Assembly (NCBI GenBank): GCA_019751815.1
Contig: JAIEMW010000001.1
Span: 961,839 to 1,025,838, forward strand
Reading direction: 5' to 3'
From: Cyanobacteriota bacterium
GTDB lineage: Bacteria; Cyanobacteriota; Vampirovibrionia; Vampirovibrionales; Vampirovibrionaceae
DNA length: 64,000 bases
Shown here piece after piece: positions 3,714-6,960 of this stretch (position 1 is its first letter; each line of letters starts with the position of its first letter). The position numbers were made by a program, and so were the translations under genes. Under the pieces are notes generated by a model, which did no database searches, was not told the DNA's origin, and saw nothing but the letters and a program-made list of their open reading frames with translations.

Positions 3714-5054
3714 TTATACTTCTAATTGACCAAACTTTCTACTATTGGGCCCGGCTCCTGTCTTTAGCAGAGCCAGAATAATCTGCCTAGCAATACTGTC
3801 TTTAGAAGCCTTCGGAAAATGTATCCGCTCAGCGGAAGGGAATACGAGAGTCATCTCATTGTCAGACGCTTCAAAGCCAATATCAGAACGACTGACATCG
3901 TTCAGTGCCAAGGCATCCACCCCTTTACGGCGGCATTTTTCTTCGGCCAGGGCAATGGCATCTGGCTCTGTTTCTGCCGCAAAGCCAAGAATGAATTGAC
4001 CGGGACGTTTTTTGGCCGCAACGCCTTTCAATATATCTTCGGTGGCAGTGAATGAGACCTCCCAGGAGGACTTGCCTGATTCTTGTTTGTGTTCTCGTTT
4101 ATGTTTCTGAGCGCTAGGATTCTCAAGTGTGAAGTCTGAGACCGCCGCGGCCATCACCAGCCAGTCTGTCTCTTCAAAATAAAGATTGACGACATCGGAC
4201 ATTTCTAAGGCAGAAGCACACCAATGAATAGAGAAACCCGGGCTTGCCTCACCAGACAGTTTATCTTTTAGCGCTTCTGTTGCAATCAAAGTGACGAGAG
4301 CGCCCATAGCATCCAGTTCTCGAGCAAAAGCCAGCCCCATTTTACCCGAACTCCGGTTGGTGAGGACCCGAACGGGATCGAGCATTTCCTGAGTACCGCC
4401 CGCTGTGACCAAAGCTCGAACACCCTTCAGGATCTGTGCATCAGGATGGACTGCACGATAAATCGCCTGTAAGATCTGCTCTTGCGTTGGCAGATGCCCG
4501 TCTCCCACTTCCCCACAGGCAAGTAACCCTGAAGAGGGGAGTAATACCGACACATCTGAGCGCTCAGTGAGGGTTTTAATATTAACCTGGGTGGCTGGGT
4601 GTTCCCACATCCGGGTATTCATCGCTGGAACGACCAACATTGGTTTCGCTGTCCAGGTAATCGCGGTTGTGCTCACAGCATCATCAGCCAGACCGTAGGC
4701 TAGTTTCGCCAACATATTGGCCGTGGCAGGAATCACCACCAAGACATCGGCATCTTGTGCCAGTTGAATATGCATGGGAGTTCCCGAAGGACTTAAGCCG
4801 TCCATCAACTGTTGTTCCAGCTGACTATCCAAGCTGGGTAAATCACCCAGGTATTCAGCGCTGGAGCGAATCACCGTTTCCCGTGAGAGTGCTTCTAGTG
4901 TCAGTGGGGTAATAAAGGCTTCTGCGCCTTTGCTCATCAGAGGAATAACACGAGTCGCCCCACGGCGGTAGCATTCACGTATCAAATCACAAACGCGGTA
5001 AGCGGCAATTCCGCCGCAAACACCAATAGCAATTGTTTTTCCACTAAAATCCAT
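3714..5054 (-). CDS. coaBC: Bifunctional phosphopantothenoylcysteine decarboxylase/ligase
   Basis: GGIAAY, PATAN, PAMNTRMW, LACGEVG, NRSSGKMG, AAAVSDF and GFAAET motifs. Confidence 0.96.
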   Translation of the reverse strand: MDFSGKTIAIGVCGGIAAYRVCDLIRECYRRGATRVIPLMSKGAEAFITPLTLEALSRETVIRSSAEYLGDLPSLDSQLEQQLMDGLSPSGTPMHIQLAQDADVLVVIPATANMLAKLAYGLADDAVSTTAITWTAKPMLVVPAMNTRMWEHPATQVNIKTLTERSDVSVLLPSSGLLACGEVGDGHLPTQEQILQAIYRAVHPDAQILKGVRALVTAGGTQEMLDPVRVLTNRSSGKMGLAFARELDAMGALVTLIATEALKDKLSGEASPGFSIHWCASALEMSDVVNLYFEETDWLVMAAAVSDFTLENPSAQKHKREHKQESGKSSWEVSFTATEDILKGVAAKKRPGQFILGFAAETEPDAIALAEEKCRRKGVDALALNDVSRSDIGFEASDNEMTLVFPSAERIHFPKASKDSIARQIILALLKTGAGPNSRKFGQLEV

Positions 5055-5262
5055 TTGCTTAGCTTACGACAAAGTCGCCGGTTCAGCATCTCCTGCCTCT
5101 GCTTCAAGGGGTGGTATTCTCATCGCCACAAGAGGGGCCATCACAATACGGACTATTAAAAAACAGGGGTCCGAGCACGGAAACCGTCATCGTGTACAGC
5201 CAACAATAATCTAGGTTTAAGGCAGTGCGTGGGATTGAGGCGTTGGAAAATTTAAAAAAATG

Positions 5263-5290
5263 TTGCACTTTTTTTTACTTGATGTATTCT
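5263..5290 (+). promoter_or_regulatory. Putative sigma70-type promoter of sRNA unit A
   Basis: TTGCAC-N16-TATTCT immediately upstream of the 5' hairpin. Confidence 0.5.
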
Positions 5291-5293
5291 ACT

Positions 5294-5395
5294 AACAACA
5301 GTTAGTAATAACTTGTTAGCTTAAAAAATCATTTTAGTTTTCCCCCTCACTCCCAACCTAAAAATTGGATGAGCTCCCATTCTGGGAGCTTTTTT
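5294..5395 (+). ncRNA. Putative sibling sRNA, unit A
   Basis: 5' hairpin AACAGTTA-GTAA-TAACT(T)GTT; 33-nt core at 5338-5370; terminator AGCTCCCA-TTC-TGGGAGCT-TTTTT. Confidence 0.75.
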
Positions 5396-5493
5396 ATTGT
5401 CCTTAATGTAAAGTTTTGTTTCTATTTCGGCCTTTTTCGGGCAATTTGCAGGCCATTTTAGACTCTATTGGAATGTAAGATTGCTACTACCTA

Positions 5494-5588
5494 CGGTTAG
5501 TAATAAACCTTACCCGCAACCCTTGCTTTACTCACACACTCACTCAAACTTTTTCCCTTGCGACAGATAACAGCGAGGGATTTTTTTT
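5494..5588 (+). ncRNA. Putative divergent sibling sRNA, unit B
   Basis: GGTTA-GTAA-TA(A)ACC hairpin; ACTCACACACTCACTC core; terminator TCCCTTGC..GCGAGGGA followed by T8. Confidence 0.62.
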
Positions 5589-5607
5589 GCCGATTTATTT
5601 TTTGTAC

Positions 5608-5635
5608 TTGATCTTTGAGACATCTGTCGTATAGT
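5608..5635 (+). promoter_or_regulatory. Putative sigma70-type promoter of sRNA unit C
   Basis: TTGATC-N16-TATAGT. Confidence 0.5.
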
Positions 5636-5642
5636 AGTACCC

Positions 5643-5744
5643 ACAACAGTTAGTAATAACTGTTTGCAAGATAGAATTTTCATTTTCCCCCTCACTCCCA
5701 ACCTAAAAATTGGATTCCCCTTTATCACAATAGAGGGGATTTTT
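5643..5744 (+). ncRNA. Putative sibling sRNA, unit C
   Basis: Perfect hairpin AACAGTTA-GTAA-TAACTGTT; 33-nt core at 5683-5715; terminator TCCCCTTTAT-CACA-ATAGAGGGGA-TTTTT. Confidence 0.75.
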
Positions 5745-5873
5745 ATTTGGGTTGTTTATTAAAGGCAAAGACTGAGCGGGTTGGGGCCTTATTGGTTACT
5801 GGAAGACACTATTTGTATACGTCACCAAGTTGTGAACAAATGTAAATCATTGCTGTCCTTTTGACACGATCCC

Positions 5874-5903
5874 TTGCCATAATATTCACTTCGATCGTAT
5901 TAT
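5874..5903 (+). promoter_or_regulatory. Putative sigma70-type promoter of sRNA unit D
   Basis: TTGCCA-N18-TATTAT. Confidence 0.5.
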
Positions 5904-5909
5904 TACTAT

Positions 5910-6013
5910 CCAAGGTTAGTAATAACCTTTGCTTTTTTTAAGTTTCATTTTCCCCCTCACTCCCAACCTAAAAATTGGATCGACCTCTGAACGGATTCAG
6001 AGGTCTTTTTTTT
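5910..6013 (+). ncRNA. Putative sibling sRNA, unit D
   Basis: Perfect hairpin AAGGTTA-GTAA-TAACCTT; 33-nt core at 5948-5980; terminator GACCTCTGAA-CGGA-TTCAGAGGTC followed by T8. Confidence 0.75.
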
Positions 6014-6058
6014 GCTTTTCACAAAAGAATCTGTTCCAGAGGTCGTTGATTTTCTTCA

Positions 6059-6136
6059 CTCTGAACGGATTCAGAGGTCTTTTTTTGCTCTTTATAAAGA
6101 CGGTTGATTTTACGCTGAACGGATTAAGCGTTTTTT
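6059..6136 (+). repeat. Two extra copies of the unit-D terminator hairpin
   Basis: CTCTGAACGGATTCAGAGGTC-T7 at 6059-6086 and ACGCTGAACGGATTAAGCG-T6 at 6112-6136. Confidence 0.75.
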
Positions 6137-6224
6137 CAAAAGATACAATTCTTAAAAGAAGAAAGCCCCTTTCAAGACAGCGAGAACCCCCGCCCAATAA
6201 GCACTTAAGCACCTTAATTCCTCA

Positions 6225-6242
6225 AGGTTCCCTTGGGAACCT
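6225..6242. promoter_or_regulatory. Perfect palindrome upstream of sepF (candidate operator)
   Basis: AGGTTCCC-TT-GGGAACCT. Confidence 0.4.
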
Positions 6243-6411
6243 CACATGACTTTCCCCTCAGGATGGAATCCGGTGCTAAAATGAGGGGAGTCAAAAAATC
6301 AACATATAAATAGATGACGATCCACTCCTTTTATATACAGAGAGTTAGTTCATCGAGAGTTAAATCATTCAAATCGACTTAGGATAGAAGTTAGGAGGTT
6401 GTAGGACGCGC

Positions 6412-6960
6412 ATGAGTCAAGGATTTATGAGCAAAATTAAAAATTGGGTCTCTGGTGACCCCTTCGAAGAAGATGTTTACAGCTTTGAAGATGACTTTGA
6501 GCAAGAGCCACGGCTCTACCGCGCAACGGCGTCTAATCCCCGTCCAGAAAGACATGAATTAGAGCCTTCCGCCTTAGAAGCTAAGAAGCGTCGGCCCAAT
6601 CTCAAATTAATTGACCAGCCCAACACCCAAGCCACGCAAGTGGTGGTGATTGAGCCCAAGGCTTTTGAGGAAGCGCTGGAAATTATTGAACACCTGCGCG
6701 CCAAGAAGTCTGTTATTTTGAATCTCCACTTGCTGGATACCAACCAGTCCCAGCGTGTGGTTGATTTTCTCTCGGGTGCCACCCATGCCATTGACGGCAA
6801 TCAGCAACGCATCGGGGACGGGGTCTTTATGTTCACCCCAAACAATGTTGTTATCACCACCCCGGATGTACATGCGGTGATTAAAGAAGCACCCATTCCT
6901 AGTGCCAGCTCTTCTTTGGCTGGAGCTTTGGGAGATACATTCTGGAGCAACCCCCACTAA
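6412..6960 (+). CDS. sepF: Cell division protein SepF
   Basis: VVIEPKAFEEA, SVILNL, QRVVDFLSGATHAIDG and FMFTP motifs; AGGAGG RBS. Confidence 0.93.
   Translation: MSQGFMSKIKNWVSGDPFEEDVYSFEDDFEQEPRLYRATASNPRPERHELEPSALEAKKRRPNLKLIDQPNTQATQVVVIEPKAFEEALEIIEHLRAKKSVILNLHLLDTNQSQRVVDFLSGATHAIDGNQQRIGDGVFMFTPNNVVITTPDVHAVIKEAPIPSASSSLAGALGDTFWSNPH

What the first reader, a model, noticed from the sequence alone, without database searches (positions are those of the whole stretch)
5263..6013. Tandem array of four putative sibling small-RNA genes between coaBC and sepF
Seen: the 1.35-kb gap holds four co-oriented ~95-105-nt units (A 5294-5395, B 5494-5588, C 5643-5744, D 5910-6013). Each starts with GTTA-GTAA-TA(A)AC, a GNRA-capped hairpin whose outer stem changes while staying paired (AACA/TGTT in C, AAG/CTT in D). 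A, C and D share the identical 33-mer TTTTCCCCCTCACTCCCAACCTAAAAATTGGAT (5338, 5683, 5948). Each unit ends in a different-sequence intrinsic terminator. A, C and D have -35/-10 boxes just upstream, and the sequences between units are unrelated. Known: multicopy sRNAs with exposed CU-rich seeds that pair with ribosome-binding sites exist elsewhere (Listeria LhrC, alphaproteobacterial cuckoo/CcsR, cyanobacterial Yfr1 and NsiR1), but I do not recognise this family. Inference: a possibly undescribed sibling-sRNA system in which separate promoters feed different signals into one anti-SD-like seed that pairs with GGGAGUGAGGGGG-like leaders. Protein titration is an alternative.
Basis: partly seen in the sequence, partly recalled or inferred. 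Interest (0 to 1): 0.9.

Follow-up and report, generated by a model that had tools for sequence, protein, structure and literature searches.

The report
Conserved sibling small-RNA genes in Vampirovibrionales
The gap between coaBC and sepF holds four tandem small-RNA genes of an undescribed family, conserved across the predatory, non-photosynthetic relatives of cyanobacteria and carrying an almost invariant C-rich stretch whose binding partner is still unknown.

Summary
Window 5263-6013 (+) holds four co-oriented ~100-nt units. Each has a 5' hairpin with GUUAGUAA and its own intrinsic terminator. A, C and D share an identical 33-mer and have -35/-10 boxes. B is a diverged sibling.

No Rfam 15 family matches (best E 0.32). 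The genome has no Photo_RC (photosynthetic reaction-centre) gene, and its relatives are labelled Vampirovibrionales.

A model of core plus terminator scores at least 39.5 bits in 30 of 49 genomes of the order, with 1-4 copies, usually tandem. The array lies beside coaBC in 22 of 30 genomes. It was not found in the other Vampirovibrionia or in a sample of the phylum.

All 7 terminator pairs show compensatory changes. The 5' motif sits in a hairpin in 33 of 34 distinct sequences. The core UUUCCCCCUCACUCCCAACC is predicted to be unpaired.

The best reading is a new family of independently transcribed sibling sRNAs with a C-rich seed, like LhrC, RsaE or Yfr1. What the seed binds is not shown. Seed matches at ribosome-binding sites are no commoner than for shuffled seeds, and no target is conserved. 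One lead is a trypsin-like protease: a near-full complement in its leader here, and an adjacent sRNA copy in four other genomes. Expression could not be tested because no RNA runs were listed.

The parts
3714..5054 (-). coaBC (flanking gene, transcribed divergently from the array)
   Evidence: Pfam DFP 2.2e-52 plus Flavoprotein 7.1e-28. An orthologue lies within 1.5 kb of the best sRNA hit in 22 of 30 genomes.
5263..5290 (+). Promoter of unit A: TTGCAC, 16 nt, TATTCT
   Evidence: Read; below the threshold of the scan. The -10 box lies at -16..-11 from the G of GTTAGTA, the same geometry as across the family.
5292..5397 (+). sRNA unit A (~100 nt): 5' hairpin 5292-5319, 33-mer core 5338-5370, terminator 5371-5391 plus U tail
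   Evidence: Fold z -3.85. Model R1 70.7 bits.
5492..5590 (+). sRNA unit B, a diverged sibling: 5' motif GTTAGTAATAAA at 5496, CA/CU-rich ACUCACACACUCACUCAAAC in place of the core, terminator stem 5554-5580 plus U tail; weak promoter
   Evidence: Fold z -2.71. Not hit by R1 at E<=1.
5608..5635 (+). Promoter of unit C: TTGATC, 16 nt, TATAGT
5645..5745 (+). sRNA unit C: 5' hairpin 5645-5664, core 5683-5715, terminator 5716-5739
   Evidence: R1 71.5 bits.
5874..5903 (+). Promoter of unit D: TTGCCA, 18 nt, TATTAT
   Evidence: 10 of 12 matches.
5911..6013 (+). sRNA unit D: 5' hairpin 5912-5929, core 5948-5980, terminator 5982-6005 plus U tail
   Evidence: R1 84.9 bits.
6059..6140 (+). Two extra terminator copies without a core: 6059-6086 is an exact 28-nt copy of 5985-6012, and 6113-6140 is degenerate. 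Probably duplication leftovers.
   Evidence: the repeat finder family D3; terminator scan 6059-6076.
6412..6960 (+). sepF (flanking gene, downstream)
   Evidence: Pfam SepF 5.8e-27. sepF lies within 1.5 kb of the sRNA hit in 6 of 30 genomes.

Best explanation
Window 5263-6013 holds four independently transcribed sibling small-RNA genes of a family specific to the order that contains Vampirovibrio. Each RNA of about 100 nt has three parts: a 5' hairpin with the conserved GU(U/A)AGUAA, a G-poor unpaired stretch with the near-invariant UUUCCCCCUCACUCCCAACC (minimal conserved part ACUCCCAA), and an intrinsic terminator.

The most likely mechanism (inferred, not shown) is trans-acting base pairing. 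The exposed C-rich seed would bind G-rich sites such as UUGGGAGU or GAGGGG in or near ribosome-binding sites, changing translation or stability. The 5' hairpin and terminator would protect the RNA. The 2-4 copies would give dosage or separate inputs.

Shown here: gene anatomy, conservation, covariation of both helices, synteny, and the absence of a match in Rfam. Inferred: expression, the base-pairing mode, and the targets. My confidence is about 0.9 that these are real sRNA genes and 0.55 for the whole statement including base pairing.
For: Anatomy:
- Repeats, promoters and terminators are well beyond chance.

Conservation:
- blastn finds the units in 29 of 41 relatives.
- Model R1 hits 41 of 49 genomes of the order at E<=0.01, and 30 of 49 at >=39.5 bits.
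- Diverged copies keep ACUCCCAA(CC).

Structure:
- Terminator helix: 7 of 7 pairs have changes on both sides; 96.8% of cells are paired against 75.1% in shuffles; 0 of 500 shuffles reach the covariation score.
- 5' motif: it lies in a hairpin of at least 4 bp in 33 of 34 distinct sequences, with compensated variants such as GUUAG:CUAAC against GUAAG:CUUAC.
- Core: mean unpaired probability 0.84 against 0.61 for the same window in shuffled units, over 33 units.

Promoter and position:
- A -10 box sits at a fixed distance (-16..-11) from GTTAGTA, with a -35 box 16-18 nt upstream, across genera.
- The array lies next to coaBC in 22 of 30 genomes.

Coding is unlikely:
- The mechanical ORFs in the gap have no Pfam match, and the FPLTPN frame stops within unit A (read).

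Seed complements:
- 7-mer complements of the core occur in 111 of 2337 translation-initiation windows against 54 of 2337 coding windows.
- One near-full-length complement (about 19 of 21 bp, -27.4 kcal/mol, rank 2 of 2336) lies at -31..-10 of a trypsin-like protease gene.
Against: - No expression data: no RNA run holds the stretch.
- Seed complements at translation starts are no commoner than for shuffled cores. At k=7, 86 of 300 shuffles reach the observed 111. At duplex energy <= -18 kcal/mol, 85 genes against 60 +/- 15 for shuffles.
- TTGGGAGT is not favoured among GGGAG-type Shine-Dalgarno sites: rank 5 of 51.
- Outside the sRNA genes, the exact 11-mer complement occurs about as often as the reversed control across the 49 genomes.
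- The hemC 'site' lies in codons 3-6 and is not conserved in 28 orthologues.
- The protease site has a true orthologue only in the same genus. The protease leaders next to sRNA copies in four other genomes show no complementarity beyond the sRNA gene itself.
- Twenty invariant bases are more than a typical seed needs.
- My gene calls come from a home-made ORF caller, and some starts are wrong, as hemC showed.
Confidence: 0.55

Rival explanations
1. The RNAs act through a protein. The invariant C-rich single strand, or the conserved GUUAGUAA hairpin, would be the binding site of an RNA-binding protein that the multicopy RNAs titrate or guide.
For: The 20-nt invariance across an order whose CoaBC proteins are only about 45-55% identical exceeds what a 7-10-nt seed needs. 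No enrichment or conservation of mRNA sites was found. The genes are multicopy and the promoters look strong.
Against: No candidate protein was identified. CsrA is encoded, but its GGA motif appears at most once per unit (UUGGAU) and is missing in f2/f3-type copies such as CCUAAAAUUGAAU and CCUACAGAAAU. The Yfr1 paper reports an invariant 11-mer across 31 cyanobacteria and suggests it may target RNAs by base pairing, or be a protein-binding motif (PMC2190773, passages). The diverged copies keep just an 8-10-nt piece, which is seed-like.
Confidence: 0.2
2. It is the diverged orthologue of cyanobacterial Yfr1/Yfr10 rather than an independent invention. Under this reading the mechanism is the same and only the origin differs.
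For: The layout is the same: a 5' hairpin, an unpaired C-rich motif and a terminator (PMC2190773 passages). By my own reading, 8 of 11 motif positions agree when CCUCAC is aligned. There is a weak Yfr10 hit of 23.5 bits, E 0.94. No exact ACTCCTCACAC occurs in the window's genome, so there is no competing Yfr1.
Against: The Yfr10 score is far below the gathering score of 43. Length is ~100 nt against 54-69. The Yfr1 motif is not enriched in 151 Vampirovibrionia genomes (41 matches against 53 for the reversed control), and none of 30 loci has the Yfr1 layout. The family is not found in the other orders of the class or in the phylum sample, so there are no intermediates. Short C-rich motifs arise easily by convergence.
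Confidence: 0.12
3. It is not a gene: an intergenic repeat, a mobile-element remnant, or a DNA-level array of operator sites.
For: A palindrome spans the -10 box and transcription start (pair I5). Duplicated terminator fragments lie at 6059-6140. Contigs of relatives often break at the array.
Against: The units sit at a syntenic position across genera. Compensatory changes keep two RNA helices. There are only 1-4 copies per genome, and in the window's genome only at this locus. The palindrome's half-sites do not covary.
Confidence: 0.03

Closest known systems
LhrC1-5 of Listeria monocytogenes (features recalled, not from a call)
   Same: Several ~100-nt sibling sRNAs, mostly in tandem, each with its own promoter and terminator, and with C-rich (UCCC-type) unpaired seeds that pair with G-rich ribosome-binding regions.
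   Different: No sequence or Rfam match. This family has one long invariant C-rich stretch rather than three short UCCC motifs in loops. It has a conserved GUUAGUAA 5' hairpin. The phylum differs, and the regulator and targets are unknown.
Yfr1 / Yfr10 of cyanobacteria (PMC2190773 and PMC6778093, passages read)
   Same: Sister lineage. The layout is a 5' hairpin, an unpaired or loop-exposed ultraconserved C-rich motif containing CCUCAC, and a terminator. Copy number varies when Yfr10 is counted.
   Different: The motif is ACUCCUCACAC against CCCCCUCACUCCCAAC. Length is 54-69 nt against ~100 nt. Yfr10 reaches only 23.5 bits against a gathering score of 43. The family is not found outside one order.
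RsaE/RoxS of Firmicutes and CcsR ('cuckoo') RNAs of Alphaproteobacteria (recalled)
   Same: C-rich anti-Shine-Dalgarno-like seeds. CcsR occurs as tandem siblings.
   Different: CcsR copies are cut from one co-transcript behind a small ORF, whereas here each unit has its own promoter and terminator. No Rfam family scored below E 0.3 on the region.
NsiR1 of Nostocales and PrrF1/2 of Pseudomonas (recalled)
   Same: Tandem arrays of near-identical sRNA genes, each with its own promoter.
   Different: Unrelated sequence, and those families have known regulators (NtcA/HetR, Fur). No regulator is identified here.

Membership tests
Any Rfam 15 family | Score at or above the family's gathering threshold | tested here: not met
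   Whole window at gathering thresholds: only 3 tRNAs. Region 5050-6420 at E<=10: best hits Phe_leader 23.7 bits (gathering 55, E 0.32) and Yfr10 23.5 bits (gathering 43, E 0.94).
Yfr1 | Invariant ACUCCUCACAC in a 12-20-nt unpaired stretch (RNAMotif descriptor in PMC2190773) | tested here: not met
   The units carry CCCCCUCACUCCCAAC. No exact ACTCCTCACAC occurs anywhere in the window's genome.
Yfr1 | Two hairpins (5' helix of 5-10 bp, 3' terminator) flanking the motif; total length 54-69 nt | tested here: inconclusive
   The two-hairpin layout is met. Length is ~100 nt and the unpaired stretch is about 45-60 nt, outside the descriptor.
Yfr10 | Yfr1 motif in the loop on top of a stem (PMC6778093); Rfam RF02362 | tested here: not met
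   23.5 bits against a gathering score of 43. Some relatives do close a stem around the core, but it is not conserved.
LhrC-type sibling sRNAs (functional class) | Multiple paralogous sRNA genes, each with its own promoter and terminator | tested here: met
   1-4 copies per genome.
LhrC-type sibling sRNAs (functional class) | C-rich seed pairs with ribosome-binding sites of target mRNAs | tested here: inconclusive
   The seed is exposed, but there is no enrichment over shuffled seeds and no conserved target. A real test needs experiments.
CsrB/RsmZ-type protein sponges | Many GGA motifs in loops or single strands | tested here: not met
   At most one GGA per unit (UUGGAU), and it is lost in the f2/f3 copies. 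A CsrA gene is present.
Small protein gene | Conserved open frame across copies | tested here: not met
   The frames differ and stop inside units. The ORFs in the gap have no Pfam match. Conservation is confined to the RNA units.

The most novel reading that the evidence does not exclude
The family is an ancient regulator of the predatory lifestyle. It would be tied to secreted trypsin-like proteases, and possibly be the Vampirovibrionales descendant of the same C-rich 'CUCAC' regulator that became Yfr1/Yfr10 in photosynthetic cyanobacteria. If so, this RNA regulator would predate the split between photosynthetic and non-photosynthetic Cyanobacteriota.

The protease lead rests on two observations. 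One sRNA copy sits divergently beside an orthologous protease gene in 3 of the 5 f2 genomes and in one f3 genome. In this genus, a near-complete anti-core sits in a protease leader.
Probability: 0.12. Interest if true: 0.7.

Novelty: new member of a known kind. Interest (0 to 1): 0.5.

Why it matters
My four literature searches found no paper on small RNAs of Vampirovibrio or Melainabacteria. This family offers a first, easily tracked riboregulator for the non-photosynthetic sister lineage of cyanobacteria.

It has a 20-nt element as strongly conserved as the Yfr1 motif, a fixed genomic address beside coaBC and the sepF neighbourhood, and a cultivable member, V. chlorellavorus, whose record carries two copies (L107). 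Finding its partner would show how an obligate algal predator controls gene expression after transcription. It would also show whether C-rich 'anti-SD-like' sRNAs are an old trait of the phylum.

The family could also be added to Rfam to improve annotation of these genomes assembled from metagenomes.

Tried and rejected
- Expression: the look-up of sequencing runs listed 11 DNA holders and no RNA holder.
- Duplex energies of the 28-nt seed against 2336 start regions showed no excess over coding windows or 40 shuffled seeds.
- Exact k-mer complements (k=6-9) showed no excess over 300 shuffled cores.
- The flanks of GGGAG-type Shine-Dalgarno sites are not biased toward the seed complement.
- The 11-mer GGTTGGGAGTG across 49 genomes gave 103 matches. 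Most are the sRNA genes themselves; the rest are about as many as the reversed control.
- hemC as a target: rejected. The site is coding (R-V-G-S) and not conserved in 28 orthologues, and my start call was wrong.
- ResB as a target: not followed, because the same problem is likely.
- Trypsin-like protease leaders of 28 homologues and of the four sRNA-adjacent genes showed no conserved complementarity. The ORF picking was crude.
- rRNA operon: only 7-mers complementary to the core.
- The Pfam Hfq model did not match in the window's genome. It also misses the Synechococcus control, so this says nothing.
- Weak R1 hits in family f7 (25-33 bits) lack the core and are terminators behind CU-rich runs.
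- Outside the order, the 20-mer hits with 2-3 mismatches are coding or GC-rich repeats.
- Of the 88 stretches holding the exact 18-mer in genome contigs, I read 28 as family members. The other 60 are mostly the NRPS A10 motif FPLTPNGK or unrelated.
- A full-length covariance model and R-scape were not run.
- Supplements of the Yfr papers were not seen.

Full report
WHAT IS THERE

The 1.36-kb gap between coaBC (3714-5054, minus strand; Pfam DFP and Flavoprotein) and sepF (6412-6960; Pfam SepF) holds four co-oriented units on the + strand.

The 12-mer GTTAGTAATAAC, allowing one mismatch, occurs four times in the window, only here. The expectation is 0.21, and 0 of 100 shuffles reach 4. The repeat finder returns a 3-copy family containing the identical 33-mer (A, C, D) and a 4-copy family around the 5' motif. 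Nothing else is shared between units.

Terminator-like sites number 6 against 1.3 expected, among them those of A, C and D. B's terminator has an 11-nt loop and appears in the fold. Each unit folds better than its shuffles, with z from -2.7 to -3.9. Each fold shows a GUAA-capped 5' hairpin, a long unpaired middle and a terminator.

Promoter-like boxes were scanned for C and D. A's boxes I read by eye, and B has only a weak -10 box. The mechanical ORFs in the gap have no Pfam match.

WHOSE GENOME

The genome is 2.62 Mb in 7 contigs and 93.9% complete. It has no Photo_RC (photosynthetic reaction-centre) gene, while the Synechococcus control rings.

An exact scan of 185,579 species' genomes for the 18-mer core gave 88 stretches. 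By their context I read 28 as family members. Of these, the 25 whose record titles were listed are all Vampirovibrionales, Vampirovibrio (including V. chlorellavorus NCIMB 11383), 'Melainabacteria', or loosely labelled cyanobacterial genomes assembled from metagenomes. The table showed titles for only 80 of the 88 stretches, so three family loci have none. Two of these loose labels (L051, L057) are sequence-identical to genomes that GTDB places in the window's own family.

The other 60 stretches are mostly the NRPS motif FPLTPNGK, which happens to be encoded by the same letters, or are unrelated.

HOW FAR IT IS CONSERVED

- blastn with the array finds the units in 29 of 41 relatives.
- I built a covariance model of core plus terminator (R1, from 17 sequences). 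It hits 41 of 49 genomes of the order at E<=0.01. At 39.5 bits or more it hits 30 of 49: f1 22 of 25 including the window's genome, f2 4 of 5, f3 4 of 19.
- Weaker hits in four further genomes keep ACUCCCAA(CC) behind a changed 5' half. The minimal invariant piece is therefore 8-10 nt.
- Copy number is 1-4, usually two in tandem 220-350 nt apart.
- In 401 genomes of the class, the 20-mer with 0-1 mismatches occurs only inside the order. The hits with 2-3 mismatches outside it are coding sequence or repeats.
- In a phylum sample of 151 genomes, nothing beyond 33 bits was found outside the window's genome, and those alignments lack the core.

EVIDENCE THAT IT IS AN RNA

On the model-fitted alignment of 54 distinct sequences, all 7 terminator pairs show changes on both sides. 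96.8% of cells pair, against 75.1% in shuffles and at most 65% when partners are slid. The fitting leans toward the structure, but the margin is large.

The 5' motif GU(U/A)AGUA lies in a hairpin of at least 4 bp in 33 of 34 distinct sequences. The outer stems differ, and there are compensated variants (GUUAG:CUAAC against GUAAG:CUUAC). In some genera the motif moves from the stem into the loop, so its sequence as well as its pairing is kept.

The core has a mean unpaired probability of 0.84, against 0.61 for the same window in shuffled units, over 33 units.

A -10 box sits at -16..-11 from the G of the motif, with a -35 box 16-18 nt upstream. A conserved ACTA(T/A)C lies between the -10 box and the predicted start.

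The array lies next to coaBC in 22 of 30 genomes and near sepF in 6 of 30. In two f3 genomes it lies between a YkuD-type transpeptidase gene and, in one of them (G179), a YggS/YlmE-like gene; the equivalent ORF in G040 had no Pfam match.

WHAT IT DOES

This part is inference. The layout is that of a trans-acting sRNA with an exposed C-rich seed.

- 7-mer complements of the core are twice as common in start regions as in coding windows (111 against 54). But 86 of 300 shuffled cores do as well.
- Duplex energies show no excess.
- TTGGGAGT is not preferred among GGGAG-type ribosome-binding sites.
- Across the order, the 11-mer complement outside the sRNA genes is about as frequent as the control.
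- A 10-nt 'site' at hemC proved to be codons 3-6 and is not conserved.
- The rRNA operon holds nothing.

The one notable site is at C6:46634-46653. It is the only other 20-mer within 3 mismatches of the core in the genome. Its complement lies at -31..-10 of the GTG start of a 415-aa Trypsin_2 protease gene. The predicted duplex has about 19 of 21 pairs and -27.4 kcal/mol, rank 2 of 2336. The same 20-mer is found in the same-genus genome G001, next to the protease's only true orthologue.

Independently, one sRNA copy sits divergently beside an orthologous Trypsin_2 gene in three f2 genomes and one f3 genome. Those protease leaders have their own promoters and no complementarity. This is a lead, not a finding.

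A protein partner remains a serious rival, given the 20-nt invariance. CsrA is encoded, but the units lack its repeated GGA motif.

COMPARISON WITH WHAT IS KNOWN

No Rfam 15 family matches. Functionally the closest are LhrC-type sibling sRNAs, RsaE/RoxS and CcsR; their features I recall from memory.

Phylogenetically the closest are Yfr1 and Yfr10 of cyanobacteria: two hairpins around an invariant ACUCCUCACAC, 54-69 nt (PMC2190773, passages), with the Yfr10 motif in a loop (PMC6778093, passages).

The units fail the Yfr1 descriptor on motif and length. The window's genome has no exact Yfr1 motif. In 151 genomes of the class the motif is not enriched (41 matches against 53 for the control), and none of 30 loci has the Yfr1 layout. 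Homology with Yfr1 is therefore possible but unsupported.

My four literature searches, which paired Vampirovibrio or Melainabacteria with small-RNA or transcriptome terms, found no description (listings only).

VERDICT

This is a real, undescribed, order-wide family of sibling sRNA genes: a new member of a known kind. The gene-level claim is strong. The mechanism is plausible but untested, and expression could not be checked.

Noticed in passing
window 6059-6140: An exact 28-nt copy of unit D's terminator part (6059-6086 = 5985-6012) and a degenerate third copy (6113-6140). Each is preceded by GTTGATTTT, and neither has a core. They are probably leftovers of tandem duplication.
   Followed up: partly
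window 5900-5925, and family-wide: The palindrome TTATTACTATCC / GGTTAGTAATAA spans the -10 box and predicted start of unit D. The half-sites TACTA(T/A)C and GT(T/A)AGTA are both conserved across the family but do not covary. This could be an operator or a processing hairpin of read-through transcripts.
   Followed up: partly
G000 C6:46634-46653 (locus L224): A core-like 20-mer with 3 mismatches. Its complement lies just upstream of the GTG start of a 415-aa Trypsin_2 protease gene, which is one of three tandem paralogues. The predicted duplex with the sRNA core is -27.4 kcal/mol. The same 20-mer is found in same-genus G001.
   Followed up: partly
L175 (G027), L177 (G025), L319 (G031), L240 (G141): One sRNA copy lies divergently, 130-260 nt away, from an orthologous Trypsin_2 protease gene in three f2 genomes and one f3 genome. 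The protease leaders show no complementarity to the core.
   Followed up: partly
Genome-contig loci such as L038, L055, L073, L105: The 18-mer core is letter for letter the coding sequence of the NRPS adenylation-domain motif FPLTPNGK. This accounts for most non-family hits across phyla.
   Followed up: yes
L051 and L057: Contigs from metagenome-assembled genomes labelled Coleofasciculaceae and Oculatellaceae cyanobacterium carry arrays and coaBC identical to G017 and G010, which belong to the window's own GTDB family. The labels look wrong.
   Followed up: partly
G000 C1, minus strand near 549502: A hairpin GCCAAT...ATTGGC followed by a T-run, with AAUCCUCACAC in its loop. It looks like Yfr10.
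   Followed up: no
window 6254-6288: In the sepF leader, CCCCTCA (6254-6260) and TGAGGGG (6282-6288) can form a hairpin. The 5' arm resembles the sRNA core, and the 3' arm is a 7-nt seed complement.
   Followed up: no
G000 C1:673479-673631: A CsrA gene (76 bits). The Pfam Hfq model finds nothing, but it also misses the Synechococcus control.
   Followed up: no
L324-L327 (family f7 genomes): Weak R1 hits are terminators preceded by CU-rich runs such as UUCCUUCCUUCCU. They could be unrelated CU-rich sRNA 3' parts in the gut Vampirovibrionia.
   Followed up: no
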